A DNA stretch of 64,000 bases from a virus. Positions 14,713-29,895 of the stretch are shown piece after piece. The notes below the pieces were generated by a model. That model was not told the DNA's origin. It ran no database searches and worked only from the letters and a program-made list of their open reading frames with translations. Where the stretch lies: IMG/VR virus record IMGVR_UViG_3300037247_001890, positions 32,001-96,000 of that record, one strand, 5' to 3'. The translations under genes and the position numbers were made by a program. Numbering within the stretch: position 1 is the stretch's first letter; each line of letters begins with the position of its first letter.

Positions 14713-14775
14713 TGTTAGTGGTAGCACGCGAGATTGTGGCTCTCGTAGGGCGGGATTCGAATTCCTCACGACCCT
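14703..14775 (+). tRNA. tRNA-His(GTG)
   Basis: Anticodon arm CGAGA-TTGTGGC-TCTCG; imperfect T and acceptor stems. Confidence 0.85.
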
Positions 14776-14792
14776 CAACGGAGGTTTAAGAG

Positions 14793-15041: not shown

Positions 15042-15101
15042 CTTGGTTAGGACCCCGGCCCTTCAAGCCGATAACGGTGGGTTCGAATCCCCCAGGGATC
15101 A
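15027..15101 (+). tRNA. tRNA-Glu(TTC), C33
   Basis: Cloverleaf; loop CC-TTC-AA. Confidence 0.9.
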
Positions 15102-15103
15102 CT

Positions 15104-15289
15104 ATGAAAACACGTATAGTAAACAAGAATGCTTTAAGAGAAGAAGGCGATGATCACGCCTGGACAGATGATCATCCTATAGTCATAGGAAAAATAGGAA
15201 CGGGCGCTTATTTTCCAATTACTTCTGGATCAGCTTTTATTACGCTTGAAGTATATTTATTCTATAAGGATTTTAAAAATGCAAGCTAA
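15104..15289 (+). CDS. small hypothetical protein (HAWTDD motif)
   Basis: ATG 3 nt after the tRNA. Confidence 0.55.
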   Translation: MKTRIVNKNALREEGDDHAWTDDHPIVIGKIGTGAYFPITSGSAFITLEVYLFYKDFKNAS

Positions 15290-15497
15290 TATTTTTCCAG
15301 GCTCAATAATATCAACAACAATAATGTGGGTGAGTATTACTCAAGCTGAAACAAGATTTTGGCCAGAGCACAGAAAACGCATAGGAGATATTATAGTAAC
15401 ATTTTCTAAGGATCATGCCACGACTACTTATAATGCAGAGGTAATAATAACAGATGAAACATGTGAATATTATTCGGGCAGCCAGATTAGTCCTTAA
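15279..15497 (+). CDS. small hypothetical protein
   Basis: SD AAGGA; ATG 15279. Confidence 0.5.
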   Translation: MQANIFPGSIISTTIMWVSITQAETRFWPEHRKRIGDIIVTFSKDHATTTYNAEVIITDETCEYYSGSQISP

Positions 15498-15672
15498 AGG
15501 CGGCCTTGATGTAACGCCAGAAGAAGAATTATATGGCATAATGATAGGCAAAGGGCTATACTATGAAGAAACTTTTGATGAAGATGGTATAGGCCATGCC
15601 TGGACAGATGACATCTACTTAGTTGATGATGAATATGAACCAGACTTTAACGCGCCCATAGCCAAGTGGTAA
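15454..15672 (+). CDS. small acidic protein (HAWTDD motif; stop inside tRNA-Trp)
   Basis: ORF track. Confidence 0.55.
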   Translation: MKHVNIIRAARLVLKGGLDVTPEEELYGIMIGKGLYYEETFDEDGIGHAWTDDIYLVDDEYEPDFNAPIAKW

Positions 15673-15723
15673 GGCACTGGCCTCCAAAACCAGCATTCCA
15701 AAGTTCGAATCTTTGTGGGCGTG
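15652..15723 (+). tRNA. tRNA-Trp(CCA)
   Basis: Cloverleaf. Confidence 0.92.
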
Positions 15724-15741
15724 CAAAAAGGAGAGGATATT

Positions 15742-16017
15742 ATGAAAGTCAAGTTTAGAGATAACCACTTAATATTCAGAACCTCAGTAGAAAAATTGAT
15801 ATACATCATCATGTCAGTAGCAACAAGAGATGGCGATGAGGAAGAAGCCATAGAAATACTACAAACTATGGGATGGACCGGCGAAGAACTTACAAGATTT
15901 GATAATGAATGGGCTGAATATTCGGAAAATTTAGAAATAGAAATAGGAAATGAGGCTGAATTATATAAAGAAGTAAAAAAGCGTATAAATCTTGAACAAT
16001 ATTGGTGTATGAAATAA
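15742..16017 (+). CDS. small hypothetical protein
   Basis: SD GAGG; ATG 15742. Confidence 0.6.
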   Translation: MKVKFRDNHLIFRTSVEKLIYIIMSVATRDGDEEEAIEILQTMGWTGEELTRFDNEWAEYSENLEIEIGNEAELYKEVKKRINLEQYWCMK

Positions 16018-16019
16018 AA

Positions 16020-16093
16020 GCCCCGGTAGCTCAACTGGATAGAGCAACGCCCTTCTAAGGCGTAGGTTTGGGATTCAAATTCCTGGCGGGGTA
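16020..16093 (+). tRNA. tRNA-Arg(TCT)
   Basis: Cloverleaf. Confidence 0.92.
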
Positions 16094-16111
16094 CTAGAAA
16101 GGAGAAAAAAA

Positions 16112-16399
16112 ATGGAAGACGAATATTTATCAATAGAACAATGTGAGCATAATAGTTTATATAAAATAGATGGCCGCAATTTTTCCCTTGGGGTATACAA
16201 TAAAAGAGAACAAGGTTTTGTAGGAATTCGCTTAAAATTCACAACGGAATTTCTTGATCTTGAGTATCATTGGGATACAGGACCTCCTAATGGAACAGTG
16301 AAACCTATTGAACTTCTTGAAAAATGTCCTATGGATGCGAACGATGAGAGCAAGGAATTATTTAAGTGGTTAAAAGAAAGACGCGAATATTATTTATGA
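16112..16399 (+). CDS. hypothetical phage protein
   Basis: SD AAGGAG. Confidence 0.7.
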   Translation: MEDEYLSIEQCEHNSLYKIDGRNFSLGVYNKREQGFVGIRLKFTTEFLDLEYHWDTGPPNGTVKPIELLEKCPMDANDESKELFKWLKERREYYL

Positions 16400-16581
16400 A
16401 AGTTAAAATCGTAACAGGCACAAAAATAGACGAGATCAAACATGAGATTGGCGCAATCAAAAGGATGGATCAAGAAGGAATTATTTGGACACCCGCAGCA
16501 AGGATTCTGAGAAATTGGAAGCTTGCACAAGATATAAAATTCTCTTACTATAGGATATCAAAATGGAACAAGCCCCGTTAG
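16396..16581 (+). CDS. small hypothetical protein (stop inside tRNA-Arg)
   Basis: ATGA overlap; starts MKVKIV. Confidence 0.55.
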   Translation: MKVKIVTGTKIDEIKHEIGAIKRMDQEGIIWTPAARILRNWKLAQDIKFSYYRISKWNKPR

Positions 16582-16645
16582 CTCAGTGGATTAGAGCATC
16601 ACGCTACGGACGTGAGGGTCAAAGGTTCAAATCCTTTACGGGGTT
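16572..16645 (+). tRNA. tRNA-Arg(ACG)
   Basis: Cloverleaf. Confidence 0.93.
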
Positions 16646-16670
16646 CTATAAAAAATAGATAGAAGAAATT

Positions 16671-17123
16671 ATGAAAAAATTAACATACATATTGGCATTC
16701 TTTATTACAAGTTGTATTTTTTGGCCGCCACCAACACAAAAATATTACACTAAAGATGTATGGAAATTTTTTAAGGATGATGCTGTAAATAATGTTGTTG
16801 TACATAAGATGCTCAAATATGATGAGGAAAAAGATGTATCTACTATTAAGTTAAAGTTTATAAACAACAATGATTCATTATATGTATTTATAAAATATCG
16901 ATTGTATATTATTTTTTATGAAGATAAGGAAAGTGAGTTTTATCGTAGAAAAAAAGGGGCTGTCTTGGGAAGTACGGAGAGAGAAGACAAAAATTTTCAC
17001 ATTAAACTTCGGCCTTACGGTTTTGCTATATCAACTGCTACTATGGATAGTATGCGAATAAGAAAAATATCTTTTTATTCGTATGAAGCAAAAAAATGGT
17101 TCAACACATTGCTTATTGAGTGA
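16671..17123 (+). CDS. lipoprotein
   Basis: Lipobox ITSC. Confidence 0.65.
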   Translation: MKKLTYILAFFITSCIFWPPPTQKYYTKDVWKFFKDDAVNNVVVHKMLKYDEEKDVSTIKLKFINNNDSLYVFIKYRLYIIFYEDKESEFYRRKKGAVLGSTEREDKNFHIKLRPYGFAISTATMDSMRIRKISFYSYEAKKWFNTLLIE

Positions 17124-17133
17124 AATCATTAAA

Positions 17134-17205
17134 ACCCCTATAGTCTAGCGATAAGGCGTCCGGCTTACATCCGGAAGATCGGTGGTTCGAATCCATCTGG
17201 GGGTA
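17134..17205 (+). tRNA. tRNA-Val(TAC)
   Basis: Cloverleaf. Confidence 0.88.
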
Positions 17206-17207
17206 CT

Positions 17208-17387
17208 ATGAAGACAAAGATAGTAGAAGCAGAAACTGTAGTTGTAGTAGAGTATCCATATGGTTTAAGAGAAAGAATCGCTATAGAAGATGTTATTTAC
17301 AAAAGATATTTTCAGGATTTTAGAAATAATCAAGAAATGACGCTGCTATATAAATTAGTAGGTTTTGAACAAAGAGAAGATTGGTAA
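17208..17387 (+). CDS. small hypothetical protein abutting tRNA
   Basis: MKTKIVE..., 59 aa. Confidence 0.5.
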   Translation: MKTKIVEAETVVVVEYPYGLRERIAIEDVIYKRYFQDFRNNQEMTLLYKLVGFEQREDW

Positions 17388-17392
17388 TAAAT

Positions 17393-17464
17393 GCCCCCTT
17401 GGTCTAGCGACATGGCGCCCGGGTTACATCCGGGAGAGCGGTGGTTTGAATCCATCAGGGGGCA
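17393..17464 (+). tRNA. tRNA-Val(TAC) variant (G32, TTTGAAT T-loop)
   Basis: Paralogue of 17134-17205. Confidence 0.85.
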
Positions 17465-17469
17465 CACAT

Positions 17470-17549
17470 GGGCTGTGGGACTGCTTTGGGGTGGTCACCT
17501 CGCTTGCACCGAGGACATCAGCAGGGTTCGAATCCCTGACGGTCCACCA
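17470..17549 (+). tRNA. tRNA-Ala(TGC)
   Basis: G3:U70; encoded CCA. Confidence 0.93.
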
Positions 17550-17644
17550 CACGTGGTAGATTAACGAGAACTGGATGATGCCAGTAATGAGATCGCTGTA
17601 ACCTTCAGGGGTGCAGAAATGAGGTTCGAGTCCTCTCCGCGTGG
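17550..17644 (+). tRNA. atypical tRNA-like RNA, apparent TCA anticodon, D-loop insertion
   Basis: Acceptor CACGTGG/CCGCGTG; T-arm GAGG-TTCGAGT-CCTC; extended anticodon arm with loop CT-TCA-GG. Confidence 0.55.
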
Positions 17645-17661
17645 CCTTATAAAACAAAATA

Positions 17662-17781
17662 TGGACTCTTGTGATCAGTGTTGGTTCGACCCCAACCTCT
17701 CGGCTTATAAACCAGTGTAAAAGGATGGCATGAAGCGTAAGAGTGATCTTATAGTGACGGATGTTCTGTAACAAGAGTCCA
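17662..17781 (+). ncRNA. T-arm-containing orphan RNA
   Basis: Closing stem TGGACTCTTGT/ACAAGAGTCCA; GTTGG-TTCGACC-CCAAC T-arm. Confidence 0.6.
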
Positions 17782-17805
17782 CTTTTCATAGAAAAAGGAA
17801 AATTT

Positions 17806-18081
17806 ATGCTAGATGGTAATTATTATTTTGAATGTATTTGTGGCTGTGATGAGCACACTATAAGATTTACACTAGATAAAGAAGAAAAAGAAATTTACAC
17901 TTCGATATTCTTGGCTAGCCATCGGAACTTTTTCATACGAATTTGGCTGGGAATCAAGTATATTTTCGGTGGAAAAAGTCGGTATGGGCAATTTGGTAAT
18001 TGGTCATTAAATGTGCATGATGCCAATAGATTGGAAGACATGTTAAATATGCTAAAGGAGTTTAAAGATGGGACCTCATAA
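17806..18081 (+). CDS. hypothetical phage protein
   Basis: FECICGCDEH; SD AAGGA. Confidence 0.65.
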   Translation: MLDGNYYFECICGCDEHTIRFTLDKEEKEIYTSIFLASHRNFFIRIWLGIKYIFGGKSRYGQFGNWSLNVHDANRLEDMLNMLKEFKDGTS

Positions 18082-19174
18082 AATATATGCAGAATATGCA
18101 GAAGGCGCTGCTTTAGATCAATTTTATGAAGCAATGAAACATGATACCGTTGTGCAAGGTGCTTTAATGCCTGACGCGCACAAAGGTTATTCATTGCCAA
18201 TAGGGGCTGTGATAGCAATGAAGGATGTTATATGGCCTGCCGCAGTAGGATACGATATTGGATGCGGTATGTGTGCTATGCCTACTTCATTTGAGAAAGC
18301 CCATGTGGAAGCACAAAAAGATCTTATTTTTGATAGGATATATGAACAAATTCCTGTTGGATTTAACTGGAACAAAAAGCGTGTTAATTTTCATGTGACA
18401 GGTGAACTAGAAAAAGAACCAATTACTCCCCATTTTAAAAAAATCTATAATGAAAGAGGAGTATTACAAATCGGTTCTCTTGGTGGAGGTAATCACTTCA
18501 TCGAAATAGGTTATGATGAAACAGATAAGGTCTGGATTATAATTCATTCCGGATCCAGAAATCTTGGACATAATATTGCCACTTATTACATGAAACTTGC
18601 ATCTGGTGATGGCAAAGCACGAGAAGGTTATTATGTATTGGATTTTCAAGGTATAGATGGCGCGAATTATGTGACAGATCTTAATTTTGCATTAGAATTT
18701 GCCTTGTTAAATCGTGGTGAAATAATAAAAAGAGTAGAAAAAATATTAAGTAAAGTTGCTAAAGGCCATGGTAACTGGGATGGGTTAATCAATCGCAATC
18801 ATAATCATGCTGAATTGAAAGATGGGCTATGGATACATCGCAAAGGTGCAACACATGCCGAAAAAGGTATGGAGGGAGTTATTCCTGGAAATATGCGTGA
18901 TGGTTCTTTTATTGTGAAAGGTAAAGGAGATCCTGAATCATTAAATTCCTCGGCACATGGTGCTGGTCGAGTATTAGGACGTCGTGCCGCTAAAGAAACC
19001 TTAAAGATGGAAGATTTTAAAAAATCCATGAAGGGAATTAAGGCAAAAGTAGGCACAGATACTATAGATGAATCTCCAGGTGCATATAAAAATATTTTTG
19101 ATGTGATGGAACAACAGAAAGATTTAGTCGAAGTCATGCATCATGTTAAACCTATTATTAATATAAAAGGATAA
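18068..19174 (+). CDS. rtcB: RtcB 3'-5' RNA ligase
   Basis: MPDAHKG, GYDIGCG, GSLGGGNHFIE, HSGSR, HN, HRKGAT, PGNM, SAHGAGR, DESP. Confidence 0.97.
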   Translation: MGPHKIYAEYAEGAALDQFYEAMKHDTVVQGALMPDAHKGYSLPIGAVIAMKDVIWPAAVGYDIGCGMCAMPTSFEKAHVEAQKDLIFDRIYEQIPVGFNWNKKRVNFHVTGELEKEPITPHFKKIYNERGVLQIGSLGGGNHFIEIGYDETDKVWIIIHSGSRNLGHNIATYYMKLASGDGKAREGYYVLDFQGIDGANYVTDLNFALEFALLNRGEIIKRVEKILSKVAKGHGNWDGLINRNHNHAELKDGLWIHRKGATHAEKGMEGVIPGNMRDGSFIVKGKGDPESLNSSAHGAGRVLGRRAAKETLKMEDFKKSMKGIKAKVGTDTIDESPGAYKNIFDVMEQQKDLVEVMHHVKPIINIKG

Positions 19175-19176
19175 TA

Positions 19177-19479
19177 ATGAGTAACTTTAAAAAACCGGAT
19201 TTTGATCCATTCGGTAAAAAGAAAGAAGACTATATTCGTGATTATGGTCGTTTTTCAATAGCAAAAATCCATAGCGTTCATGAAGATTTAGGTTTAGTTA
19301 TTGGTGAATTAGATGAAAATGTTATGGGTGCCATTCCCATTAATTGGTTTACGAAAGTTAAAAAAAATACTTGGAGACCAAACGGACTAGCATGTCCTTA
19401 TATCTATATGGATGATTTTCGTCAGCTAGCAATTGATACGTATAATACAATTAAAGATCAAATAAAGGATCGCGTATGA
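19177..19479 (+). CDS. hypothetical protein
   Basis: Operon context. Confidence 0.65.
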   Translation: MSNFKKPDFDPFGKKKEDYIRDYGRFSIAKIHSVHEDLGLVIGELDENVMGAIPINWFTKVKKNTWRPNGLACPYIYMDDFRQLAIDTYNTIKDQIKDRV

Positions 19480-20390
19480 TAGACAAAGAATTTAAAGTCT
19501 TAGACAAAGGATTTATACGTCTTGTGGACTATATGGGTTCTGACCAGGCTATAGTTCAAGCGGCCCGTGTTTCATATGGCAAGGGTACAAAAACGAAACG
19601 TGAAGACGAAGGACTTATTCGGTATCTCATGAGACATAGACACACGACACCCTTTGAGCAATGTGAACTAAAATTCCATGTTAAAGTACCCATGGATTGC
19701 TGGCGACAATGGATACGGCATCGCACAGCCAGTGTAAATGAATATTCTACTAGGTATTCAGAAGCTATTGACGACAAACAAGAAACCAGTGAATTTGACT
19801 GGCGCAAACAAGATACAACAAAAAATACACAGGGCAGTAGTGGCCTTTATCTTCCTGCTGAAGAAATAGGCGATGATGGACATCCCAGTGCAATTGGTAA
19901 GTGGCACACTATTCAGGAAAGAGCATTGCATAAAACAGCAGAAACAGTCTATAAAAATAGATTAAAAGCTGGTATCGCTCGCGAACAAGCACGTAAAGAT
20001 TTACCTTTGTCGACGTATACTATGGCCTACTGGAAAATTGATTTGCACAATCTGTTTCATTTCTTAGGATTGAGAATGGACAGTCATGCTCAATTAGAAA
20101 TTAGAAAATACGCCAATATCATTGGTTACGAGATTGTGGCAAAGATATTTCCTTTGGCATGGGGCGCATTTCTAGATTATCGATTGAATGCGATGACGTT
20201 GTCAGCAAGAGATATCCATATTATACAGCAAAAAATTATATATGGAGATAAATATCTAGAAAATTCAGATGATTATAATCCTTTTAATTGGTTGGAAAAG
20301 CGTGACGACGGAACATTAAAAGACAATCTCGAGCGGAAGGAATTCGAAGAAAAAGCAAAAGTGTTAGGAATAAAAGTTCCTTGGATATAA
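19476..20390 (+). CDS. thyX: FAD-dependent thymidylate synthase
   Basis: AARVSY; RHRTASVNEYSTRY; REQARKDLP; HAQLEIR. Confidence 0.97.
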   Translation: MIDKEFKVLDKGFIRLVDYMGSDQAIVQAARVSYGKGTKTKREDEGLIRYLMRHRHTTPFEQCELKFHVKVPMDCWRQWIRHRTASVNEYSTRYSEAIDDKQETSEFDWRKQDTTKNTQGSSGLYLPAEEIGDDGHPSAIGKWHTIQERALHKTAETVYKNRLKAGIAREQARKDLPLSTYTMAYWKIDLHNLFHFLGLRMDSHAQLEIRKYANIIGYEIVAKIFPLAWGAFLDYRLNAMTLSARDIHIIQQKIIYGDKYLENSDDYNPFNWLEKRDDGTLKDNLERKEFEEKAKVLGIKVPWI

Positions 20391-20394
20391 CTTC

Positions 20395-20468
20395 GGGTCC
20401 GTAGCTTAGCTGGTGAAGCATCCGCCTTTTAAGCGGAAGAGTGGCAGGTTCAAGTCCTCCCGGGCCTA
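20395..20468 (+). tRNA. tRNA-Lys(TTT)
   Basis: Cloverleaf. Confidence 0.92.
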
Positions 20469-20474
20469 CAAACA

Positions 20475-20580
20475 ATAGTGTGGTTGGTTGAGCATAAAAC
20501 TTGAGCCTGTAATCCCGAACGAAAATAGACGAGAATGATCAATCTAAAAGATGACATGCCTCTATTTTTGGCCACACTAT
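20475..20580 (+). ncRNA. orphan structured RNA
   Basis: Closing stem ATAGTGTGGTT/GGCCACACTAT. Confidence 0.5.
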
Positions 20581-20606
20581 AAATAATTAAATACAGGAGG
20601 TTTATA

Positions 20607-20849
20607 ATGGCAGCAGCAAAGAAATGCATTATAACTGGCAGAAACCGACTTACCGGTATTTTTTATATGTTGAATAAAAATACCAACACCATGAAAACAA
20701 TTTGGTGGACTTCTGGCAAGGAACCAAAAGTACGCAAAGAAACTGAACGTAAGATCTTTGGGTCTGGTTCGGAAGCAAAAACATTCCTAAGGTATTTAAG
20801 ACGCGAGCCAAGTGTTTTTGATATCAGATGGTTTTTGGAATACATTTAA
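20607..20849 (+). CDS. small hypothetical protein
   Basis: SD AGGAGGT. Confidence 0.65.
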   Translation: MAAAKKCIITGRNRLTGIFYMLNKNTNTMKTIWWTSGKEPKVRKETERKIFGSGSEAKTFLRYLRREPSVFDIRWFLEYI

Positions 20850-20865
20850 TAACCAATAGAAATAA

Positions 20866-21123
20866 ATGGCAGATAAACAAAAGATCTTTGACGATGTCAA
20901 AGAAGAAAGAAAATATCAAGACAAAAAATGGGGATTAGAATTCGACAAGAATAATACAGCGAATGATTGGTCCTCATATATCATGACATATTTGGCAAAT
21001 GCTATAGCAATGCCAACTGGTTCTGACGAATACAGGCGATTGATGATCAAAGTAGCAGCCTTATCGTTTGCAGCAATAGAACTGCATGATGATAAATTAA
21101 TGCCAAACCGACATTACGAATAA
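20866..21123 (+). CDS. MazG-like all-alpha small protein
   Basis: EERKYQDKKWG...LMIKVAAL...AAIE pattern. Confidence 0.55.
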   Translation: MADKQKIFDDVKEERKYQDKKWGLEFDKNNTANDWSSYIMTYLANAIAMPTGSDEYRRLMIKVAALSFAAIELHDDKLMPNRHYE

Positions 21124-21147
21124 AAAAAGGGACAGCGATGTCCCTAA

Positions 21148-21235
21148 GCTGGGTTCGCATAGTGGCCGATTGCACGGGGTTTGTAACCCTGAGAGTAGCA
21201 ATACTCCGCGTGAGTTCGAATCTCACACCCCAGCT
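21148..21235 (+). tRNA. tRNA-Thr(TGT) with long variable arm
   Basis: CGGGG-TTTGTAA-CCCTG; variable hairpin GAGTA-GCAA-TACTC; G1-C72 and C2-G71. Confidence 0.82.
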
Positions 21236-21237
21236 CT

Positions 21238-21519
21238 ATGAATATAAAAACAATAATAGGAAAGAAAGTTGTAGCAATAAAAGGTTACAACTCGAGATGG
21301 AACGATAAGAGAGTAAAGCACCATAATACAGAACCAGAATATATATTATTTGATGATGGAAAAACTTTTATAGAATTGGAAGAACAAGATCACTATTCAT
21401 ATCATGATTGTAGTCTTACCGCCAGAGAAATATTAATCCAAAAAGACAAAGACAAATGGGATTCTATAATGACGAGCAAAATGTATAGTGATGCAACACA
21501 TAATTTATCAATGTACTAA
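21238..21519 (+). CDS. hypothetical protein abutting tRNA
   Basis: ORF track. Confidence 0.6.
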   Translation: MNIKTIIGKKVVAIKGYNSRWNDKRVKHHNTEPEYILFDDGKTFIELEEQDHYSYHDCSLTAREILIQKDKDKWDSIMTSKMYSDATHNLSMY

Positions 21520-21527
21520 GGTAAAAA

Positions 21528-22229
21528 ATGTTTAATAAATATGAAAAAACATATAGAATACAGACTCCTAATTTGAAAATATCCGGAAAGATGAACATGT
21601 CTAAAAAAGATGTTCAACGGTTATTGACAGGGAAAGTTACTATTGAAGAAAAGATTGACGGAGCTAATGTAGCTATTATAGGCATGGCATCAAACGTATC
21701 TTATTTTCGTCCGCCACGGCCATTTAGATTACAAAAGCGTGGATCATTGATTGATTTTTCTGAACATGAACAATATAATCGATTTAAGGCATGGTCAATG
21801 AAACAATGGAATAATTTGTCTAAGATAGAATACGGAATTTATGTATATGGTGAATTTATGTGGGCTACCCATCATATCTTTTATGATAATTTAACTGATT
21901 GGTTTGTATGTTTTGATATATGGGATGGTCGGAAATTTTACGACAGGCGAGAAAAAGAAAAATATTGTAATGATTTAAACTTCCAAATAATTCCATTGGT
22001 ATATGAAGGTTATATTGACGATATTATACACTTAGAAAGTTTTGTGCATGGCAAATCAGAATATAGTACAGATCATGATCGGGAAGGTATTGTAGTAAAA
22101 AATTACAGAAAACAAATGCGAGGAAAAATAGTAGTACCAGAATTTGTTAAAGAATTAAATGAAGATGGCACTCATTGGATGACTCGCTGGGATCCACGAA
22201 AAGTAAATAAATTAAAAAAGGAAATCTGA
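21528..22229 (+). CDS. ATP-dependent RNA ligase family protein
   Basis: Motif I EEKIDGAN; YGEF; FDIW; EGIVVK; K-motif RGKIV. Confidence 0.85.
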   Translation: MFNKYEKTYRIQTPNLKISGKMNMSKKDVQRLLTGKVTIEEKIDGANVAIIGMASNVSYFRPPRPFRLQKRGSLIDFSEHEQYNRFKAWSMKQWNNLSKIEYGIYVYGEFMWATHHIFYDNLTDWFVCFDIWDGRKFYDRREKEKYCNDLNFQIIPLVYEGYIDDIIHLESFVHGKSEYSTDHDREGIVVKNYRKQMRGKIVVPEFVKELNEDGTHWMTRWDPRKVNKLKKEI

Positions 22230-22468
22230 TGGTACAACAAAAGGTCTATCGGAATATAAAAATGAGAGAAAAAAATTTCTTTATTAAAGCATTGGATTGC
22301 CTATTTTATTCTTGGGGAGGAGACACTCCTTCAGAGGTATTTTGGGGATGCAATGATTTACTTGAGTGGTTCGAACAGGAATATAAAGTCAAATTAAATA
22401 TAAGATTTGATGAAGGAAATCCTAATAGTAATTATGATGATGTTATAAAAGCAATAAGGAATGCCTAA
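22229..22468 (+). CDS. hypothetical protein
   Basis: Coupled ORF. Confidence 0.55.
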   Translation: MVQQKVYRNIKMREKNFFIKALDCLFYSWGGDTPSEVFWGCNDLLEWFEQEYKVKLNIRFDEGNPNSNYDDVIKAIRNA

Positions 22469-22568
22469 TTATGAGAATGCTGTGGGTATGGATAAAAGTA
22501 TATTGTATACTTTTAATATTATTTCCCTATTTTTGGTTTAGAGGAATGATAGAAGTAAGGAAAAAGAA

Positions 22569-22642
22569 GCATCATTAGCTCATCGTGGTAGAGCGTCAGA
22601 CTTCCAATCTGAAGGTGGTCAGTTCAAGCCTGACATGGTGCT
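22569..22642 (+). tRNA. tRNA-Gly(TCC)
   Basis: Cloverleaf. Confidence 0.92.
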
Positions 22643-22656
22643 CATGAAAACATAAA

Positions 22657-22728
22657 GCGGGCATAATTCAGTGGTAGAATTTTTCGTTGCCAACGAAATC
22701 GCCGTGAGTTCGAATCTCACTGTCCGCT
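22657..22728 (+). tRNA. tRNA-Gly(GCC)
   Basis: Cloverleaf. Confidence 0.93.
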
Positions 22729-22751
22729 CTCATTAAAACAAAAGGAAAATA

Positions 22752-22955
22752 ATGAAAATAGAAGTTGATGAAAATAGGGACATTATATTGAAAGATGTTT
22801 TTAATGGTGTCGGATTTATATCTCCCGACGGCGAAAAATTTAATATATGCATGCGTGATGGCGGCTATGAATTTAGTTATCAAGGAACATGGTTTCGTGC
22901 AGTTGGTGGAATAATGGAAATAATAAATTTAAATCCTATAAAGGACAAAAAATGA
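22752..22955 (+). CDS. small hypothetical protein
   Basis: SD AAGGA. Confidence 0.6.
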   Translation: MKIEVDENRDIILKDVFNGVGFISPDGEKFNICMRDGGYEFSYQGTWFRAVGGIMEIINLNPIKDKK

Positions 22956-23392
22956 TATTTTGGATAGCACTAATTTTATTACTTTGGATTATCTCCATAG
23001 TATTTAATGACATAGAAGACTCGCTGGCGCATCATTATAAAAGCACAGTCTTTGACTGGCTGCCGAAGCATACATGGCTATCCTGGTATATGAAGGATCC
23101 GGATACGACTTGGAAAAGAAAGTATATTTGGTTGCCGGCCGGCCGTGATGGTGAAACAAAAGCAGGCAGGAAAAAATTTCTTGGCATAATAATACCAGCA
23201 TTTTTCTTTGATGGTTGGCATGGAGCAAAAATTATAAGACAATTTTTCCAGTATTTAACAATTTACGTGGGCATAAATAGCGGAATAGCAATTCCATTTA
23301 TATTAGGCTTGTTACTATTTATGATCAGTAACCAAATCACTCATTCCCACTTGTTTTATGGTGGAATGTTTCTAAAAAAATGGTGGGAATAA
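22952..23392 (+). CDS. membrane protein
   Basis: TM segments; FFDGWHGAK. Confidence 0.65.
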   Translation: MIFWIALILLLWIISIVFNDIEDSLAHHYKSTVFDWLPKHTWLSWYMKDPDTTWKRKYIWLPAGRDGETKAGRKKFLGIIIPAFFFDGWHGAKIIRQFFQYLTIYVGINSGIAIPFILGLLLFMISNQITHSHLFYGGMFLKKWWE

Positions 23393-23420
23393 TTCCCACT
23401 TTACAGAGAACGGAGGAATA

Positions 23421-23645
23421 ATGGGCAACAGATATTTTTTAACGATCAAATGTCCTAGTTGTGGTTATTTCGACGAGGATGTTTATTATGCTCCCACTTG
23501 TGGTTTTGTAGATTGGAGATGTCCTAAATGCGGTAAGGTTGTAGATTTAGAGGAAGAGACTGGTATTAGTTATGAGGACGCATCTAATCTTGGAGCCATT
23601 AAGAAGCTGTGTTCTAAGTTTGAAAAGAAAGGGGATAAGTCTTAA
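23421..23645 (+). CDS. Zn-ribbon protein (stop inside tRNA-Pro)
   Basis: CPSC...CPKC; SD GGAGG. Confidence 0.7.
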   Translation: MGNRYFLTIKCPSCGYFDEDVYYAPTCGFVDWRCPKCGKVVDLEEETGISYEDASNLGAIKKLCSKFEKKGDKS

Positions 23646-23702
23646 CGGTGAGACGGGTGCTTTGGGAGCATCAGGCGGTCGGTTCGATCCCGGCATCCCC
23701 TA
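23630..23702 (+). tRNA. tRNA-Pro(TGG)
   Basis: Cloverleaf. Confidence 0.9.
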
Positions 23703-23703
23703 C

Positions 23704-24008
23704 AAAAATCGATGGGCTTTCCTCGGAAACACAATGCGTAGTATTGTGGTCAAAACCTGGAATATTATGTAGTGCGATTTGAAGCAGTCCGGAGCGCGTA
23801 TCAAACAGTAAATAGTCGGACCTTGGGACAGCAGTCCGGTAAGGATGTCTTGAATCTCGAACCCCTGCTGTGGTAGCTTTTGTAAATCTTAATGGAGCCT
23901 ACGTGAACGTTTGTAACGTAACCCGTCGTCGACAGTCCCATACGTGGGGCGACTGGCACGCCGTAAGTTCATTTATCCAGTAACGTGAATAATCCCCCAT
24001 CGATTTTT
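23704..24008 (+). ncRNA. orphan structured RNA, about 300 nt, between tRNA-Pro and tRNA-Cys
   Basis: Perfect 13-bp closing stem AAAAATCGATGGG/CCCATCGATTTTT; GC-rich; internal hairpins. Confidence 0.7.
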
Positions 24009-24012
24009 TAAT

Positions 24013-24083
24013 GATTCCGTGGCCGAGTGGCTAGGCGAGAGACTGCAAATCTTTTTACGTCAGTTCAAATCTGACCGGAATCT
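24013..24083 (+). tRNA. tRNA-Cys(GCA)
   Basis: Cloverleaf; U73. Confidence 0.92.
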
Positions 24084-24099
24084 CTATGAGAAGGAAAAA

Positions 24100-24489
24100 A
24101 TGAAAGAAAAAAGATTTCACATTTTACAAGCAAATAGCCTCAATAAAGAAGATATTATTGTGGGAGGTCTTTACAGATATGATCAAATTGCAACTGTAAG
24201 AAAAAATAAAACCTATGAAGGACAAAAAACATTAAGAGTACAAACTTTAGCGGGTGCACGTTATATGAGACTTACCTATTTTCAAGATAGAAACTTCTAT
24301 ATAAGAATAGAAAGAGAATTGCATCTTTTAGATGGACTACCTATTTCGGGACAAGTAGATTCAAAGTTATATAGAAAAACAGTTGATATAGAAGCATCTC
24401 AAAAGTTTTTAGGATATCTAGATTCTTTGCCAGAAGAAGTGGTAAAACCAAAAACACCTATAGAGCAACTACAAGAGCAAATGTATTGA
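24100..24489 (+). CDS. hypothetical protein
   Basis: Start reassigned to the ATG after the tRNA; SD AAGGA. Confidence 0.6.
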   Translation: MKEKRFHILQANSLNKEDIIVGGLYRYDQIATVRKNKTYEGQKTLRVQTLAGARYMRLTYFQDRNFYIRIERELHLLDGLPISGQVDSKLYRKTVDIEASQKFLGYLDSLPEEVVKPKTPIEQLQEQMY

Positions 24490-24713
24490 AAGGACTACAC
24501 ATAATCGAATCAGAAACCCCAGGAATTACAAAAATAAAATTAAAAACTAGCGATAGAAAACCGATGTTTGCCAAAGGTTCTAATTCTGAAAGATCCGATT
24601 GGTCGTCTTATAAAATGTTTAAAAAATATAAAAAATACAAAAACAAAAAAATATTAAAAATGTATCGAAGTTCGTGGAATAGCGATGAATTTTTTATCAA
24701 ACATTTTATGTGA
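24486..24713 (+). CDS. small protein, tandem paralogue 1
   Basis: LHIIESETPG...YRSSW...HFM. Confidence 0.65.
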   Translation: MKGLHIIESETPGITKIKLKTSDRKPMFAKGSNSERSDWSSYKMFKKYKKYKNKKILKMYRSSWNSDEFFIKHFM

Positions 24714-24952
24714 AAGCAAATGCAATGAAAGAATTACACATAATTGAATCAGAAACTCCGGGAGTAACACGAAGTAAAGTAAAGGTGGAAAAAATAATCA
24801 AACATTTTGCAATAGACCTTGATATAGAGCTTGGAGATTTTTCATCATTGGAAATAGAAAAACAGAAAGGTTGGTACAGAGGACACAAAATATTAAGGAT
24901 ATATCGCAGTTCATGGAAAGAAGATGAATATTTCGTTAGGCATTTCATGTGA
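24710..24952 (+). CDS. small protein, tandem paralogue 2
   Basis: Same motifs as the preceding gene. Confidence 0.65.
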   Translation: MKANAMKELHIIESETPGVTRSKVKVEKIIKHFAIDLDIELGDFSSLEIEKQKGWYRGHKILRIYRSSWKEDEYFVRHFM

Positions 24953-24953
24953 T

Positions 24954-25037
24954 GGAGCGGTGGCAGAGTTGGTTGATCGCGCGAGGTTGTAGCCCTCGAC
25001 TGTAAAAAGCACGGTGGTTCGAATCCATCCCGCTTCA
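24954..25037 (+). tRNA. tRNA-Tyr(GTA)
   Basis: Class II cloverleaf. Confidence 0.92.
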
Positions 25038-25299
25038 CAAGAACTTCTTCGGAGGAAGTTAAGGCAAGGTTATAATCCGACTGCAACAACATAAGATTAG
25101 ATTAATAGAGGATAGAAAGATGCTAACCGGTTTAGATGATAATGGTAAATTTCGCTGCATCTTTCAGAAATGAAAAGTAGTCGAGAGTCTACTCCTTTGA
25201 GTCCTTGTGATGCATTCCATCGCTTAGGATTACTTTTCATTTTTCATTTTATTATGGCATAATAGAAGTACAATCAATCTTTATTCTAAGGAGATATTT

Positions 25300-26682
25300 A
25301 TGACTTACGCAAAAACTGATAAAGACGCTTTACAATATGAAAGTTCTGGCAGTCGTTTGGTAGATTTTTTCTCTAAAGCAGCTGTACAAAGAATGCAGGT
25401 ATTGGCAGGTGAAGATGATTTAATACCTCTTTATAAAAGAGCTAAACAAGAGGATCACATATTAGCGACGAAGACAGTATTTTGGTTGCGTGATCCTAGA
25501 GCAGGAGCTGGAGAAAGAGCAGCAGGAATAAAACTACTTAAGCATTTGGCTGATACACAACCAGGCTTTGTATCCGAAAATATGCTACAAATAGCTGAAT
25601 ATGGCAGATGGAAAGATCTGATTGAATTATCGTCAACTCATAAAAACGATGTAATTATTACCTGGGCAAAGGCAATAAAAGAAGGTGATCGCCTGGCATC
25701 TAAATGGGCACCACGCAAGGGAGATTTGGCTCGATCAATTCGAGACGAGTTAGGGATAACCAATGCAGAGTATCGTCATACATTAAAGAAAAATTCTGAA
25801 ACTGTGGAACAAGCAATGTGTTCTAAAGACTGGGGTTCTATTGATTATACGAAAGTGCCATCCGTGGCAATGCGTAAATATAGTCGCGCATTTCGTAAAA
25901 ATGATACCCAGCGTTTTGATGATTTTCTTGGCGATTCGACAAAAAAAATAAATACTGCAGTAAATTATCCTCATGAGGTTGTAAGACACATACGAACAGA
26001 CGTTGATGTTAGTGATAAAATGTGGACAAACTTACCGGAGTTCACACAACCTGGTCAGTATTTTTTGACTGTGGTTGACGTATCAGGATCAATGACTTGT
26101 ACAGCTATCGATAAGGCAGGAAGCCAGCCAATACATGTAGCCCTAGCTTTAGGGTTATACCTTGCAGAAAGAAACGTGGGACCTTTTGCTAATAAAGTGA
26201 TCACCTTTTCTGATATGCCACAGTGGGTTGAAATAGACCCAAAGGAAAAGTTACATCAGAAATTCGTAGATTTGTGCAATATAGACTGGGGTGGCACAAC
26301 CAATATCGAACGAACTTATGAGCTAATTCTGAAATTAGCAAACGCAGCCTCAGTACCACAAGATAAAATGCCATCAACACTGATTATCTTATCGGACATG
26401 CAATTTGATTCATGTACGAGCGGTATGACGCATTTGGATAACATACAAAATAAATATAAAGAATATGGGTATGAAATTCCAAAGCTAGTATTTTGGAACC
26501 TGTCAGGCAGCTACACGGGTAGTCCAATAGATAACAGGGATAATGTAGCCCTGATATCTGGTTTTAGTCCTACTATTTTGAAGGCCGTTCTTCAAAATAA
26601 GGTCATAGACCCTGTCGGCGTTCTAAAAGATGCAGTAGATGGTTATAACATTAATTTTGACCACTTCGATCCCGAAGCATAG
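25300..26682 (+). CDS. DUF2828-family Ro60/TROVE-like protein with C-terminal vWA domain
   Basis: LRDPRAGAGER; YGRWKDL; KWAPR; MIDAS DVSGSM; WGGTTN; ILSDMQFD; VFWNL; ISGFSP. Confidence 0.88.
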   Translation: MTYAKTDKDALQYESSGSRLVDFFSKAAVQRMQVLAGEDDLIPLYKRAKQEDHILATKTVFWLRDPRAGAGERAAGIKLLKHLADTQPGFVSENMLQIAEYGRWKDLIELSSTHKNDVIITWAKAIKEGDRLASKWAPRKGDLARSIRDELGITNAEYRHTLKKNSETVEQAMCSKDWGSIDYTKVPSVAMRKYSRAFRKNDTQRFDDFLGDSTKKINTAVNYPHEVVRHIRTDVDVSDKMWTNLPEFTQPGQYFLTVVDVSGSMTCTAIDKAGSQPIHVALALGLYLAERNVGPFANKVITFSDMPQWVEIDPKEKLHQKFVDLCNIDWGGTTNIERTYELILKLANAASVPQDKMPSTLIILSDMQFDSCTSGMTHLDNIQNKYKEYGYEIPKLVFWNLSGSYTGSPIDNRDNVALISGFSPTILKAVLQNKVIDPVGVLKDAVDGYNINFDHFDPEA

Positions 26683-26724
26683 GGCAAGAAGATATTACGC
26701 GACATACGTCACGTTGAATAAAAC

Positions 26725-26753
26725 TTGCATCCTGGTTTAAAATTCGGTATATT
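26725..26753 (+). promoter_or_regulatory. sigma70-like promoter TTGCAT-17-TATATT
   Basis: Directly upstream of a non-coding structured region. Confidence 0.75.
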
Positions 26754-26759
26754 GTGGTA

Positions 26760-27306
26760 CGAGTTTAAACAACTAACAGCACTAACAAAAAAACAGGAAC
26801 AATTGGTCACAGGTTCGAATCCTGTCATCCGCCCATGGTATGAACATGTCACACGGTGGATGTAGCTCAGTGGATAGAGCAATTGTATTTGATCCAAGCA
26901 CAGTTGTCCGCAAGGTTTTAGCTTGGATTTTATAAAAATAAGTTTGAATAGGAACGAAAGAACTCACAGCACCCCAAAATTTGACCTTGAAAATCAAAAA
27001 AAACCAACGTTCTCCGAAAGGTGTTCCTGTTCTAAAAAAAATACACCATACAGCAAACAAATACTGGTTGCTTCTACGCTAAAAGGTGGCGGTGTCCGGA
27101 AGGTTTAAAACTCGGCAGCGTTAGAGGCAGGGTTTCGATACCCAAACAATCAACCCATCAGCACACCATACAAATCAAAGATCAGGGGAGTCGACATGAT
27201 TGGGGTTACCGAAAGGTTTGACGACATGTAGGCTGGACCTGAAGCATAATATCTCCTAAACCGAAGGGCGTTGGCACATTAAGATGTATGTCGGCGTCCT
27301 TTTTTT
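26760..27306 (+). ncRNA. composite Y-RNA-like transcript (4 modules, includes a permuted tRNA)
   Basis: Four stem-CAGCA...stem-CCGNAAGG modules; permuted tRNA 26799-26886; own promoter and terminator. Confidence 0.75.
27265..27306 (+). terminator. intrinsic terminator
   Basis: AAGGGCGTTGGCA/TGTCGGCGTCCTT plus T-run. Confidence 0.75.
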
Positions 27307-27328
27307 ATTAATTTTAGTCGGAGGATGA

Positions 27329-27553
27329 ATGCCAACAATCCAACATGAATTGGCTAAAGTTGGACTTATACGAAAACGCAAGGCAGAATTCTGGGAAAAC
27401 ATAAATACACTTAAACCAGAATATCGTCGAGTATTGAAAGAAAAGGCAGAAGCATTCAATGCTGATCCTGTTACAATAGCTAGAATTGAATTTAGACTTC
27501 AATCAGTTTTAAAACAGATCAAAAGACTTACAAAAGCAGCAAAAGCTGCATAA
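27329..27553 (+). CDS. small basic protein
   Basis: SD GGAGG; followed by a terminator. Confidence 0.65.
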   Translation: MPTIQHELAKVGLIRKRKAEFWENINTLKPEYRRVLKEKAEAFNADPVTIARIEFRLQSVLKQIKRLTKAAKAA

Positions 27554-28957: not shown

Positions 28958-29335
28958 ATGAATAGAATACAGCCGGAAGAATTGATAAAATTACAAGGAA
29001 TACTTCGTAGAGGAACAATTGTCAAAGTTCATAATCAGAAAGACGATATTTTTCTAGAAGCAACTTTTGATGGATTCGCAGACGCCGAATGTCCATACAG
29101 ATATTGTTTACTCCATCCTAAAAATCCTGGAAAACAAAAAGATGTAAAACCCTGTGATGGTTTTATGAGGTGGATTATAAATGATGAGGAGCAAGAATCT
29201 TGTCCTTATTTAGGTGGATTGGAATTTACAGCAGGTGACATGCAAGTTATTACAGAAATTAAAACAAAAAAGAAAAATCCAGAGACAGGCGGTTATGATG
29301 AAACGTGGCTTATCCCAAGTGATTACCTGAAATGA
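28958..29335 (+). CDS. hypothetical protein
   Basis: Packed operon. Confidence 0.65.
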   Translation: MNRIQPEELIKLQGILRRGTIVKVHNQKDDIFLEATFDGFADAECPYRYCLLHPKNPGKQKDVKPCDGFMRWIINDEEQESCPYLGGLEFTAGDMQVITEIKTKKKNPETGGYDETWLIPSDYLK

Positions 29336-29895
29336 AAATATTAAGAAAAATAAATGTAATAGATATAGAAGCGACATGTTGGGATAATCCTGAAGAGAGG
29401 AAAGACCAACCTAATGAAGCCATAGAAATAGGAATAACTGAGGTTGATCTTTCTAATCTTGAAATAAATAACAGCAAGAGTGTGTACGTAATTCCACGAA
29501 ATAGTTCTATATCAGAATTTTGTACAAAATTAACAGGCATTCCACCAGCATTAATAGCGGGAAGAGGAGTTAGCTTCACTAAAGCTATACGTGTTTTAAA
29601 ACAAACTTTTAGAATACATAACAGGCATTGGATTAGTTGGGGCGACTATGATAAGGACCAATTACAACGTGATTGCGACAGGAATAATTTGGTATATAAT
29701 AAAGTATTCTTCAAAAGACATACCAATTTTAAAACTGTTTTTGCTATGCTATATGGGCTCCCAAAAGAACTGGGCGTAGAAGCGGCATTGACCCATATAG
29801 GTCTGCACTTTGCAGGACAGCTCCATAGCGGAAAAGATGATTCTTTTAATATTGCCCGACTTTATGTCCATACGTTGAAAAAATTTAGGAAATAA
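29332..29895 (+). CDS. DEDDh 3'-5' exonuclease (ERI-1/KapD-like)
   Basis: IDIEATCW; IEIG; FCTKLTGI; SWGDYD; HSGKDD. Confidence 0.9.
   Translation: MKILRKINVIDIEATCWDNPEERKDQPNEAIEIGITEVDLSNLEINNSKSVYVIPRNSSISEFCTKLTGIPPALIAGRGVSFTKAIRVLKQTFRIHNRHWISWGDYDKDQLQRDCDRNNLVYNKVFFKRHTNFKTVFAMLYGLPKELGVEAALTHIGLHFAGQLHSGKDDSFNIARLYVHTLKKFRK

What the first reader, a model, noticed from the sequence alone, without database searches (positions are those of the whole stretch)
25300..27306. Ro-like protein plus a four-module composite Y-like RNA displaying tRNA parts
Seen: right after the DUF2828/vWA gene, a separately promoted and terminated non-coding unit of about 545 nt with four modules of the form stem-(A/T)CAGCA-cargo-stem'-CCGNAAGG. 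The stems are ACAACT/AGTTGT (26769-26915), AGAAC/GTTCT (26959-27021), ACACC/GGTGT (27043-27103) and AACCC/GGGTT (27152-27216). Cargo 1 is a complete circularly permuted tRNA: 3' half 26799-26833 precedes 5' half 26855-26886, opened at the anticodon loop. Cargo 2 is an isolated anticodon stem-loop (TTTGAC-CTTGAAA-ATCAAA), and an extra T-arm lies at 27130-27143. CGAGTTTAAAC (26760) can pair long-range with GTTTAAAACTCG (27103). Established: bacterial Ro60 binds Y RNAs with permuted tRNA-like domains and is linked to RtcB. Inference: a multivalent RNP scaffold in which the CAGCA modules bind the protein and display tRNA mimics as decoys for, or recruiters of, nucleases and ligases; I know of no description of it.
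Basis: partly seen in the sequence, partly recalled or inferred. Interest (0 to 1): 0.88.

Follow-up and report, generated by a model that had tools for sequence, protein, structure and literature searches.

The report
Phage Ro60-like protein, four-module partner RNA
A large phage encodes a ring-shaped Ro60-like protein and, right behind the gene, a separately promoted 550-base non-coding RNA built of four units that share one conserved "handle"; one unit carries a tRNA look-alike. It is most likely the protein's partner RNA, a little-described phage branch of the Ro60/Y-RNA particle.

Summary
After the DUF2828/vWA gene (25300-26682) lies a unit of about 550 nt with its own promoter and terminator (about 26759-27307). 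It holds four modules of the form stem-(A/T)CAGCA-cargo-stem'-CCGNAAGG, at the stated coordinates. All are on the gene's strand and conserved in five related phages.

Main results:
- The protein's model has the Ro60 fold.
- Module 1 is a YrlA-type permuted tRNA mimic.
- CCGNAAGG is a small hairpin capped by a GNRA tetraloop.
- Three modules also have a covarying helix that encloses the 3' handle, giving a pseudoknot topology.

My covariance models find this handle, and a more common relative (AGG-stem-CAGCAA...stem'-CCUGU), almost only on the gene's strand beside DUF2828 genes. These include Felix O1-like phages, cluster L mycobacteriophages, Listeria P100-like phages and a cyanophage. The GNRA-type handle is confined to one clade of the protein tree.

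Not supported:
- the proposed long-range pairing 26760/27103;
- cargo 2 as an anticodon-arm mimic.

Binding, expression, processing and function were not tested.

This is a new variant of the known Ro60/Y-RNA kind. Phage Ro60 with Y-like RNAs is published, but I found neither this handle nor its GNRA form in Rfam 15 or in papers. This scan has reported the same CAGCA-handle family before on other genomes.

The parts
25300..26682 (+). Ro60-like protein gene (460 aa; DUF2828 + DUF7788/vWA; the DxSxS residues of a MIDAS-type metal site, D260 S262 S264, are invariant)
   Evidence: Pfam and PHROG 850 'RNA-binding protein'. AF2 model with pLDDT 89.5; Foldseek hits to Ro60 2i91, 1yvp, 9l5y and 2nvo at E 2e-8 to 4e-7. 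Invariant residues.
26697..26714 (+). Hairpin just after the stop codon; it has no U-run
   Evidence: Compensatory changes in L011 and L007. Role unknown: a weak terminator or a processing site.
26725..26753 (+). Sigma-70-type promoter TTGCAT-17-TATATT; the start of transcription would be near 26759-26761
   Evidence: Conserved in relatives and consensus TTGACA in L001. Read from the sequence; the tool's scan listed an overlapping weaker site instead.
26769..26928 (+). Module 1. Handle stem 26769-74/26902-07, CAGCA 26777-81, YrlA-type tRNA-like cargo 26800-26885, GNRA mini-hairpin 26908-15, enclosing helix 26892-99/26921-28 followed by a U-run
   Evidence: Rfam YrlA 34 bits. R2 scores 28.9 bits, E 1e-6, and this module was not in the seed. 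Pair counts.
26950..27028 (+). Module 2. Outer stem 26950-55/27023-28, handle stem 26959-63/27009-13, CAGCA 26967-71, small hairpin 26980-98, GNRA mini-hairpin 27014-21
   Evidence: R2 62 bits. The outer stem has two pairs with compensatory changes.
27043..27128 (+). Module 3. Handle stem 27043-47/27091-95, CAGCA 27051-55, GNRA mini-hairpin 27096-103, enclosing helix 27070-80/27117-28
   Evidence: R2 58.8 bits. The enclosing helix has four pairs with compensatory changes.
27130..27143 (+). T-arm-like hairpin GGGU-UUCGAU-ACCC
   Evidence: Conserved in 4 of 5 relatives and deleted in L009. No Rfam tRNA match here.
27152..27242 (+). Module 4. Handle stem 27152-56/27203-07, CAGCA 27159-63, GNRA mini-hairpin 27209-16, enclosing helix 27182-97/27226-42
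   Evidence: R2 59.8 bits. The enclosing helix covaries. The same TAACCC/GGGTTA handle occurs in distant loci L013, L014, L017-L019 and L023.
27264..27306 (+). Intrinsic terminator (13-bp stem, 12-nt loop, T7)
   Evidence: Read from the sequence. It covaries in L008, L009 and L011. The tool's scan missed it because the loop exceeds 8 nt.
18137..19171 (+). Context: RtcB RNA ligase inside the tRNA array
   Evidence: PF01139, 294 bits.
21528..22229 (+). Context: RNA ligase (PF09414)
29332..29895 (+). Context: RNase T-family 3'-5' exonuclease
   Evidence: also downstream in relative L008.

Best explanation
The locus encodes a phage version of the Ro60/Y-RNA particle.

Shown:
- The 460-aa DUF2828/vWA protein has the Ro60 ring fold.
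- The neighbouring unit of about 550 nt carries four Y-RNA-like modules between its own promoter-like and terminator-like signals.
- Each module has the same handle: a 5-6 bp stem, a single-stranded (A/U)CAGCA at the 5' edge of the loop, and a CC-GNRA-GG mini-hairpin directly 3' of the stem.
- The cargos differ. Module 1 is a YrlA-type tRNA mimic.
- Handle and protein occur together across many phages, and handle type follows the protein clade.

Inferred:
- The handle is the docking site for one Ro60-like ring, as the conserved stem of a Y RNA is for Ro60.
- The cargo parts recruit or imitate other RNA-handling factors: tRNA enzymes, a 3'-5' exonuclease such as host PNPase, and ligases.
- The phage thereby steers RNA decay or repair during infection, or blunts a host defence, as reported for the Ro60-like gp130 of phage Bas63.

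Whether the transcript stays whole, carrying up to four rings, or is cut into four small RNAs is open. I put it at about even.
For: - Fold: Ro60 structures are the top Foldseek hits, E 2e-8 to 4e-7, TM 0.5-0.65, including the Ro60 of Thermus phage phiLo.
- Same-strand neighbourhood and conservation: the whole unit aligns in five relatives. Handle columns are 87% invariant against 44% elsewhere (Fisher 1e-16).
- Structure: 93% of proposed pairs form, and 14 pairs carry compensatory changes. The handle stems differ between modules yet stay complementary. The mini-hairpin covaries: CC/GG becomes GC/GC in L019 and GCCC/GGGC in L073.
- Association: model R2 gives 73 hits, 71 on the gene's strand. 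Model R1, for the common handle, gives 120 hits, 119 on the gene's strand, in 583 kb of DUF2828 loci.
- Control: 725 kb of other viral DNA gives 3 R1 hits. The best of them lies beside the one further DUF2828 gene there.
- Within the 169-kb phage record the modules occur only at this locus.
- All 12 loci with the GNRA handle fall in one protein clade, SH-aLRT 100.
- Module 1 matches YrlA.
- Published parallels: Y RNAs next to Ro60 in 22 phages, with several Y RNAs cut from one precursor (PMC4201824); phiLo Ro60 binds two adjacent Y-like RNAs and host PNPase (PMC12135203); Bas63 gp130 counters the Ppl defence (PMC11482910).
- RNA-repair context: RtcB, an RNA ligase, an exonuclease, 27 tRNAs and a tmRNA.
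Against: - There are no binding or expression data for this RNA.
- The canonical Ro-binding motifs (GNCGAAN0-1G, GGUCCGA) are absent, and Pfam TROVE does not match the protein.
- The seed modules for both covariance models were picked by a descriptor that demanded complementarity, so the covariation figures are partly circular.
- Handle type versus protein clade amounts to one evolutionary event, not a statistical test.
- Folding energy is no better than that of shuffled sequence.
- The loci were chosen through the protein, so a full RNA-first census is still missing.
Confidence: 0.7

Rival explanations
1. The handle is recognised by something other than the Ro60-like protein, for example RtcB, the RNA ligase, RNase P, RNase E, or a host factor. 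It sits near DUF2828 genes only because both live in phage tRNA and RNA-repair islands.
For: DUF2828 genes lie beside tRNA arrays in most loci. RtcB and ligases are nearby. No binding data exist.
Against: Modules are directly adjacent to the gene, often within 100 nt of its start or stop, and on its strand. In KVP40 a handle overlaps the gene's own start codon. Handle type follows the protein clade. Elsewhere in this phage's tRNA island there is no module.
Confidence: 0.12
2. The unit is mainly regulatory for the protein itself. It would be a decoy or titration RNA, or a 3' UTR element, that buffers free Ro60-like protein or controls its mRNA, with no separate effector role for the cargos.
For: The hairpin after the stop codon has no U-run, so read-through from the gene is possible. 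In other phages handles sit on or just before the gene's start codon, and earlier scan notes report the same.
Against: The unit has its own strong promoter and terminator. A tRNA mimic is kept with compensatory changes. This window has no handle at the gene's start.
Confidence: 0.1
3. Decayed tRNA genes or other non-functional leftovers at the end of the tRNA array.
For: The unit lies at the end of a 27-tRNA array. Its overall identity between relatives (64-81%) is close to that of third codon positions (63-78%). Folding energy is unremarkable.
Against: Handles are invariant, helices carry compensatory changes, promoter and terminator are conserved, and the same architecture occurs in phages whose proteins are only 36-45% identical.
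Confidence: 0.03

Closest known systems
Bacterial and mycobacteriophage Ro60 (Rsr) with the Y RNAs YrlA and YrlB (Rfam RF02553; Chen et al. 2014, PMC4201824)
   Same: A ring-shaped Ro60-fold protein with a vWA domain. Y-like RNAs are encoded within 1 kb on the same strand. One RNA has a permuted tRNA-like domain (T arm, closed acceptor stem, D arm). Several RNAs come from one transcription unit.
   Different: The protein belongs to DUF2828/DUF7788, not Pfam TROVE. The YrlA model scores only 34 bits against a gathering score of 69, because the Ro-binding part differs: there is no GNCGAAN0-1G at the 5' end, and CAGCA plus a 3' GNRA mini-hairpin stand in its place. There are four modules rather than two RNAs.
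Thermus phage phiLo Ro60 with Yrl1 and Yrl2 (PMC12135203; PDB 9KOP, 9L5Y)
   Same: A phage Ro60 of about 460 aa. Adjacent Y-like RNAs were shown to bind it. Yrl1 has two motif-bearing hairpins and binds in more than one stoichiometry. The particle forms a complex with host PNPase.
   Different: The phiLo RNAs lie upstream of the gene and were defined by a CGAA motif in an internal bulge. Here only two of the four mini-hairpins contain CGAA (loops GAAA, GAAA, GCAA, GGAA), which points to a tetraloop rather than a sequence motif. No sequence similarity between the proteins was detectable.
The common CAGCA(A)-handle RNAs beside DUF2828 genes
   Same: A stem that joins the two ends of the module, CAGCA at the 5' edge of the loop, variable cargo that includes YrlA-like tRNA mimics, tandem arrays, and a place next to the gene on its strand. 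Model R2 cross-detects R1-type modules at E 1e-4 to 1e-2.
   Different: R1 does not detect this window's modules at E up to 1. The AGG...CCUGU base of the handle is replaced by a shorter stem plus the CC-GNRA-GG mini-hairpin. Three modules add an enclosing, pseudoknot-forming helix. This type is confined to one protein clade.
Dictyostelium Class I RNAs (RF01414; PMC7919456)
   Same: By their description: a short stem joining the ends, a conserved motif next to the 5' half of the stem, a 3' CUGU and a variable body. One R1-type phage module (L048:210-270) gets a weak RF01414 hit of 28 bits, E 0.35.
   Different: There is no RF01414 match in this window at E up to 10. The 3' CUGU is absent here. 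The only direct binder reported for these RNAs is an RRM protein. This is a lead only.

Membership tests
Ro60 / TROVE proteins | Ring of HEAT-like repeats followed by a vWA domain (Ro60 fold) | tested here: met
   AF2 model pLDDT 89.5, pTM 0.86. The top Foldseek hits are all Ro60, E 2e-8 to 4e-7, over about 500-550 aligned columns.
Ro60 / TROVE proteins | Match to the Pfam TROVE sequence family | tested here: not met
   Pfam gives DUF2828 (E 1e-25) and DUF7788 (E 1e-47). vWA_Ro60 appears only at E 0.0025, below its cut-off. There is no TROVE hit at E up to 1, and no Ro60 chain by profile search of PDB sequences.
Ro60 / TROVE proteins | DxSxS motif of the MIDAS metal site in the vWA domain | tested here: met
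   D260, S262 and S264 are invariant in 16 homologues; T334 and D366 are also invariant.
Ro60 / Y RNA particle | The protein physically binds the neighbouring RNA | not testable with these tools
   This needs EMSA, RIP or a structure.
YrlA (RF02553) | Permuted tRNA-like domain: T arm, loop-closed acceptor stem, D arm, leaving through the anticodon-stem position | tested here: met
   The cmscan alignment covers model positions 1-114. The T and acceptor stems carry compensatory changes.
YrlA (RF02553) | Score at or above Rfam's gathering threshold (69 bits) | tested here: not met
   34 bits here. Relatives score 34.1 (L001), 35.5 (L019) and 39.3 (mycobacteriophage Jubie).
YrlA (RF02553) | GNCGAAN0-1G motif near the 5' end (PMC4201824) | tested here: not met
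   The 5' side reads ACAACUAACAGCAC. The closest thing to the motif is CCGNAAGG on the 3' side.
Common CAGCA(A)-handle RNAs (model R1) | 7-bp AGG... stem, CAGCAA, and a 3' CCUGU, detectable by R1 | tested here: not met
   R1 gives no hit in the RNA unit at E up to 1 and none in the whole phage. R2 does cross-hit R1-type modules weakly.
GNRA-handle subtype (model R2) | 5-bp stem, CAGCA(C), stem', CC-GNRA-GG, beside a DUF2828 gene on its strand | tested here: met
   Four hits in the window. Three were seeds; module 1 was not, and scores 28.9 bits, E 1e-6. There are non-seed hits in L008, L017, L019, L020 and L023.
ROOL / GOLLD large phage ncRNAs | Match to RF03087 or RF01998 | tested here: not met
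   No hit at E up to 10 in 26600-27400.
Dictyostelium Class I RNA (RF01414) | Match to the Rfam model | tested here: not met
   No hit in the window's unit at E up to 10.

The most novel reading that the evidence does not exclude
The 550-nt transcript stays whole and acts as a multivalent scaffold. Its four pseudoknotted GNRA-handles would each dock one Ro60-like ring, and the different cargos (a tRNA mimic, small hairpins, a T-arm-like hairpin) would bring host tRNA enzymes, PNPase or defence nucleases to the assembly. That would be a phage-built RNA-surveillance or counter-defence machine with no described equivalent.
Probability: 0.2. Interest if true: 0.85.

Novelty: new variant of a known kind. 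Interest (0 to 1): 0.66.

Why it matters
Ro60 and its Y RNAs are conserved from bacteria to humans, yet what Y RNAs recruit, and why phages carry the system, is poorly understood. This locus gives a sharply defined candidate docking element, different from the canonical Y-RNA stem. It recurs beside Ro60-fold DUF2828 proteins, a protein family that tblastn finds in 703 phage genome records.

The docking element comes with swappable cargos, and the related common handle is present in tractable phages:
- Felix O1-like phages, including relatives of Bas63, whose Ro60-like gp130 counters the Ppl defence;
- Listeria P100-like phages;
- cluster L mycobacteriophages.

This makes two questions directly testable with mutants of a few nucleotides: what a phage Ro60 particle does, and how its RNA is recognised. 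The GNRA-hairpin form, confined to one protein clade, offers a natural pair for testing whether protein and RNA specificity changed together.

Tried and rejected
- RNAalifold instead proposes that the 5' end (GGUACGAG) pairs with 27253-27262. Both sides are invariant, so this cannot be tested, and part of the 5' side may lie upstream of the start of transcription.
- Cargo 2 as an anticodon-arm mimic: the loop length varies from 7 to 9 nt.
- blastn of the RNA against 50,697 phage records found no match.
- An RNA-first pattern scan of viral contigs (ACAGCAC-N35-65-ACCGAAAGG) was too loose. Of the 80 loci listed among 120 matching stretches, only two carry the gene. They served as a negative control instead.
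- The general descriptor with a 6-bp stem was too permissive: 360 hits on the + strand, 249 on the - strand, 137 in shuffled sequence. Covariance models replaced it.
- Minimum free energy against shuffles was not significant.
- DNA for relatives P0008 and P0009 could not be fetched.
- A coding reading of the unit was rejected. It holds only short ORFs, and its indels are not multiples of three.
Full report
**What is there**

The window comes from a 169-kb IMG/VR virus record. It holds 27 tRNA genes and a tmRNA, RtcB at 18137-19171, an RNA ligase at 21528-22229 and an RNase T-family exonuclease at 29332-29895.

At the end of the tRNA array lies a 460-aa ORF, 25300-26682. It matches Pfam DUF2828 and DUF7788 (a vWA domain) and PHROG 850 'RNA-binding protein'. 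tblastn finds relatives in 703 phage records, all below 60% identity. They include Felix O1-like phages, KVP40, cluster L mycobacteriophages (annotated 'Ro-like RNA binding protein'), Listeria P100-like phages and Campylobacter phages.

An AlphaFold model built on 16 homologues (pLDDT 89.5) has Ro60 structures as its best PDB matches, at E 2e-8 to 4e-7. These include the Ro60 of Thermus phage phiLo and Deinococcus Rsr. Pfam TROVE does not match, and a sequence profile finds no Ro60 chain. The protein therefore has the Ro60 fold but belongs to a separate sequence family.

**The RNA unit**

The 646-nt gap after the gene is conserved in five related phages whose proteins are 79-87% identical. It contains:
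- a covarying hairpin just after the stop codon;
- a promoter, TTGCAT-17-TATATT, which is the consensus TTGACA in L001;
- four modules;
- a covarying intrinsic terminator at 27264-27306.

The four CCGNAAGG copies on one strand within 310 nt compare with 2.8 expected for the whole window on both strands. Among the five orthologues, handle columns are 87% invariant against 44% elsewhere (Fisher 1e-16). Overall identity (64-81%) is close to that of third codon positions (63-78%). Selection therefore acts on the handles and helices, not on the linkers.

**Structure**

CCGNAAGG is a two-pair hairpin with a GNRA loop. The loops are GCAA, GAAA, GGAA and GAAA. In distant loci the closing pairs change together, to GC-GAAA-GC in L019 and GCCC-GAAA-GGGC in L073.

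The handle stems do not vary between orthologues. They differ between the four paralogous modules and in distant loci while staying complementary: ACAACU, AGAAC, ACACC, AACCC, UGGUC, UAGUC.

Module 2, and the 'UGGUC' class in distant phages, continue into an outer helix beyond the mini-hairpin, and this helix covaries. In modules 1, 3 and 4 a helix forms between the 3' part of the cargo and the sequence after the mini-hairpin. It encloses the 3' half of the handle and gives a pseudoknot topology. For modules 3 and 4 it has four and three pairs with compensatory changes.

On the full proposed structure, 93% of cells pair and 14 pairs show changes on both sides. With partners slid by one to three columns, 33-44% pair and 0-4 pairs show such changes. 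The minimum free energy is not better than that of shuffles.

**Module 1**

Its cargo is the YrlA type of tRNA mimic: T arm, a 7-bp acceptor stem closed by a variable loop of 11-38 nt, D arm, and an exit through the anticodon-stem position. Rfam YrlA scores 34 bits, E 1.6e-5, below its gathering score because the Ro-binding half differs. The equivalent RNAs in L001, L019 and mycobacteriophage Jubie score 34-39 bits.

**Association with the protein**

Model R2, built from short modules of this type, finds module 1, which was not in the seed, and non-seed modules in L008, L017, L019, L020 and L023. It gives 73 hits, 71 of them on the gene's strand. In the whole phage the modules occur only at this locus.

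Looking at other DUF2828 loci, I found a more common handle: AGG-stem (7 bp), two to three bases, CAGCAA, cargo, stem'-CCU-GU. It occurs in tandem arrays directly before or after the gene:
- Felix O1-like Alf5: two modules among the tRNAs downstream of the gene.
- Mycobacteriophage Jubie: three modules, the middle one YrlA-like.
- A cyanophage: three modules.
- Listeria phage LMSP-25: three modules behind a TTGACA promoter just upstream of the gene.
- KVP40: a minimal copy that overlaps the gene's start codon.

Model R1 for this handle gives 120 hits at E up to 1 in 583 kb of DUF2828 loci, 119 of them on the gene's strand. By my count from the two hit lists, roughly 60 of the 84 sampled loci have a hit at E 0.01 or better with R1 or R2.

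As a control I used 725 kb of viral DNA that was not chosen through the protein. R1 gives three hits there. The best one lies just upstream, on the same strand, of the only extra DUF2828 gene in that set. Strong R2 hits occur only on the contig already known as L014.

R1 does not detect this window's modules, whereas R2 weakly detects R1-type modules. The window therefore carries a divergent subtype. On a tree of 78 proteins, all 12 loci with the GNRA subtype fall in one clade of 14 (SH-aLRT 100). This fits protein and handle having changed together, but it is a single event.

Caveat: the seeds of both models were chosen by a descriptor that required complementarity. The covariation figures are therefore partly circular. 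The strand bias, the position next to the gene, the non-seed hits and the controls are not circular.

**What is known**

- Chen et al. 2014 (PMC4201824) found YrlA-like RNAs next to Ro60 in 254 bacteria and 22 phages. They defined a 5' GNCGAAN0-1G motif and showed that several Y RNAs can come from one precursor.
- The phiLo study (PMC12135203) showed a phage Ro60 binding two adjacent Y-like RNAs, one of them with two motif-bearing hairpins, and host PNPase.
- PhageMaP (PMC11482910) found that the Ro60-like gp130 of the Felix O1-like phage Bas63 counters the Ppl defence, and guessed that Y RNAs hide among its tRNA genes.
- A Listeria phage study (PMC12282133) found the homologous protein in virions and three very highly transcribed non-coding regions within 2 kb upstream of its gene. 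I cannot say whether the CAGCA modules are among those regions. One is probably a ROOL RNA.
- None of these papers describes the CAGCA handle or its GNRA form, and Rfam 15 has no family for it.
- This scan has reported the same CAGCA-handle family beside DUF2828 genes on other genomes. I reached the handle independently, before reading those notes. From them I took only the lead to Dictyostelium Class I RNAs, which does not apply to this window's subtype.

**Mechanism**

The most likely reading, about 0.7, is that the handle is the docking site of the Ro60-like ring and that the cargos give each particle a different partner. Module 1 would mimic tRNA. The phage would use the particles to steer RNA decay or repair, or to counter a host defence.

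Shown: the fold, the anatomy, the conservation, the association, and handle type following the protein clade. Inferred: binding, stoichiometry and function.

Whether the 550-nt RNA stays whole or is cut is open. A single promoter and terminator, the short linkers and a possible end-to-end pairing favour a whole RNA. A/U-rich linkers, a hairpin plus U-run after module 1, and precedent in Mycobacterium and Deinococcus favour processing.

**Verdict**

This is a new variant of the Ro60/Y-RNA kind, with a clear set of experiments.

Noticed in passing
L096:1234-1785 (Listeria phage LMSP-25, NC_024360.1): Matches Rfam ROOL RNA at 88.5 bits (gathering score 99.1, E 9e-17), about 1 kb upstream of the DUF2828 gene and on its strand. 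It may be one of the 'highly transcribed non-coding regions' reported for the related phage CKA15 (PMC12282133).
   Followed up: no
L093:1930-1969 (Vibrio phage KVP40): A minimal handle (GACAUU-UUA-CAGCAA...AAUGUC) whose 3' strand contains the start codon of the DUF2828 gene KVP40.0300. This suggests the protein could repress its own translation. This window has no such element at its own gene's start.
   Followed up: partly
L092:3790-3880 and 3958-4031 (Escherichia phage Alf5): Each of the two CAGCA modules between tRNA-Glu and tRNA-Tyr is followed by an unannotated tRNA-like element. Rfam tRNA scores 48 bits at 3958-4031; the other has an odd D arm.
   Followed up: no
L001, L006, L007, L010 (relatives of the window): Four independent metagenome contigs end inside or just after module 1 of the RNA unit. 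Assemblies seem to break there, perhaps because of tRNA-like repeats or strain variation.
   Followed up: no
L020:4189-4270 and L019:4790-5162: Handle variants occur in the same protein clade. In L020 CAGAAAUG replaces CCGAAAGG. In L019 the mini-hairpin is GC-GAAA-GC, and that phage also has a YrlA-like module at 3945-4094.
   Followed up: partly
L048:210-270: An R1-type handle RNA (48 bits) coincides with a weak Rfam hit to Dictyostelium Class I RNA (RF01414, 28 bits, E 0.35). Published Class I features resemble the common phage handle: a stem joining the ends, a motif next to the 5' half of the stem, and a 3' CUGU.
   Followed up: partly
window 26710-26724: GTTGAATAAAACTTG, just upstream of and overlapping the -35 element, is invariant in all nine aligned relatives, and so more conserved than the -35 hexamer itself. 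It may be an UP element or a regulator site.
   Followed up: no
window 4251-4596 and 5723-25038: The phage carries its own tmRNA (91.8 bits) and 27 tRNA genes, with RtcB (18137-19171) and an RNA ligase (21528-22229) interspersed. Together they form a large translation and RNA-repair island.
   Followed up: partly
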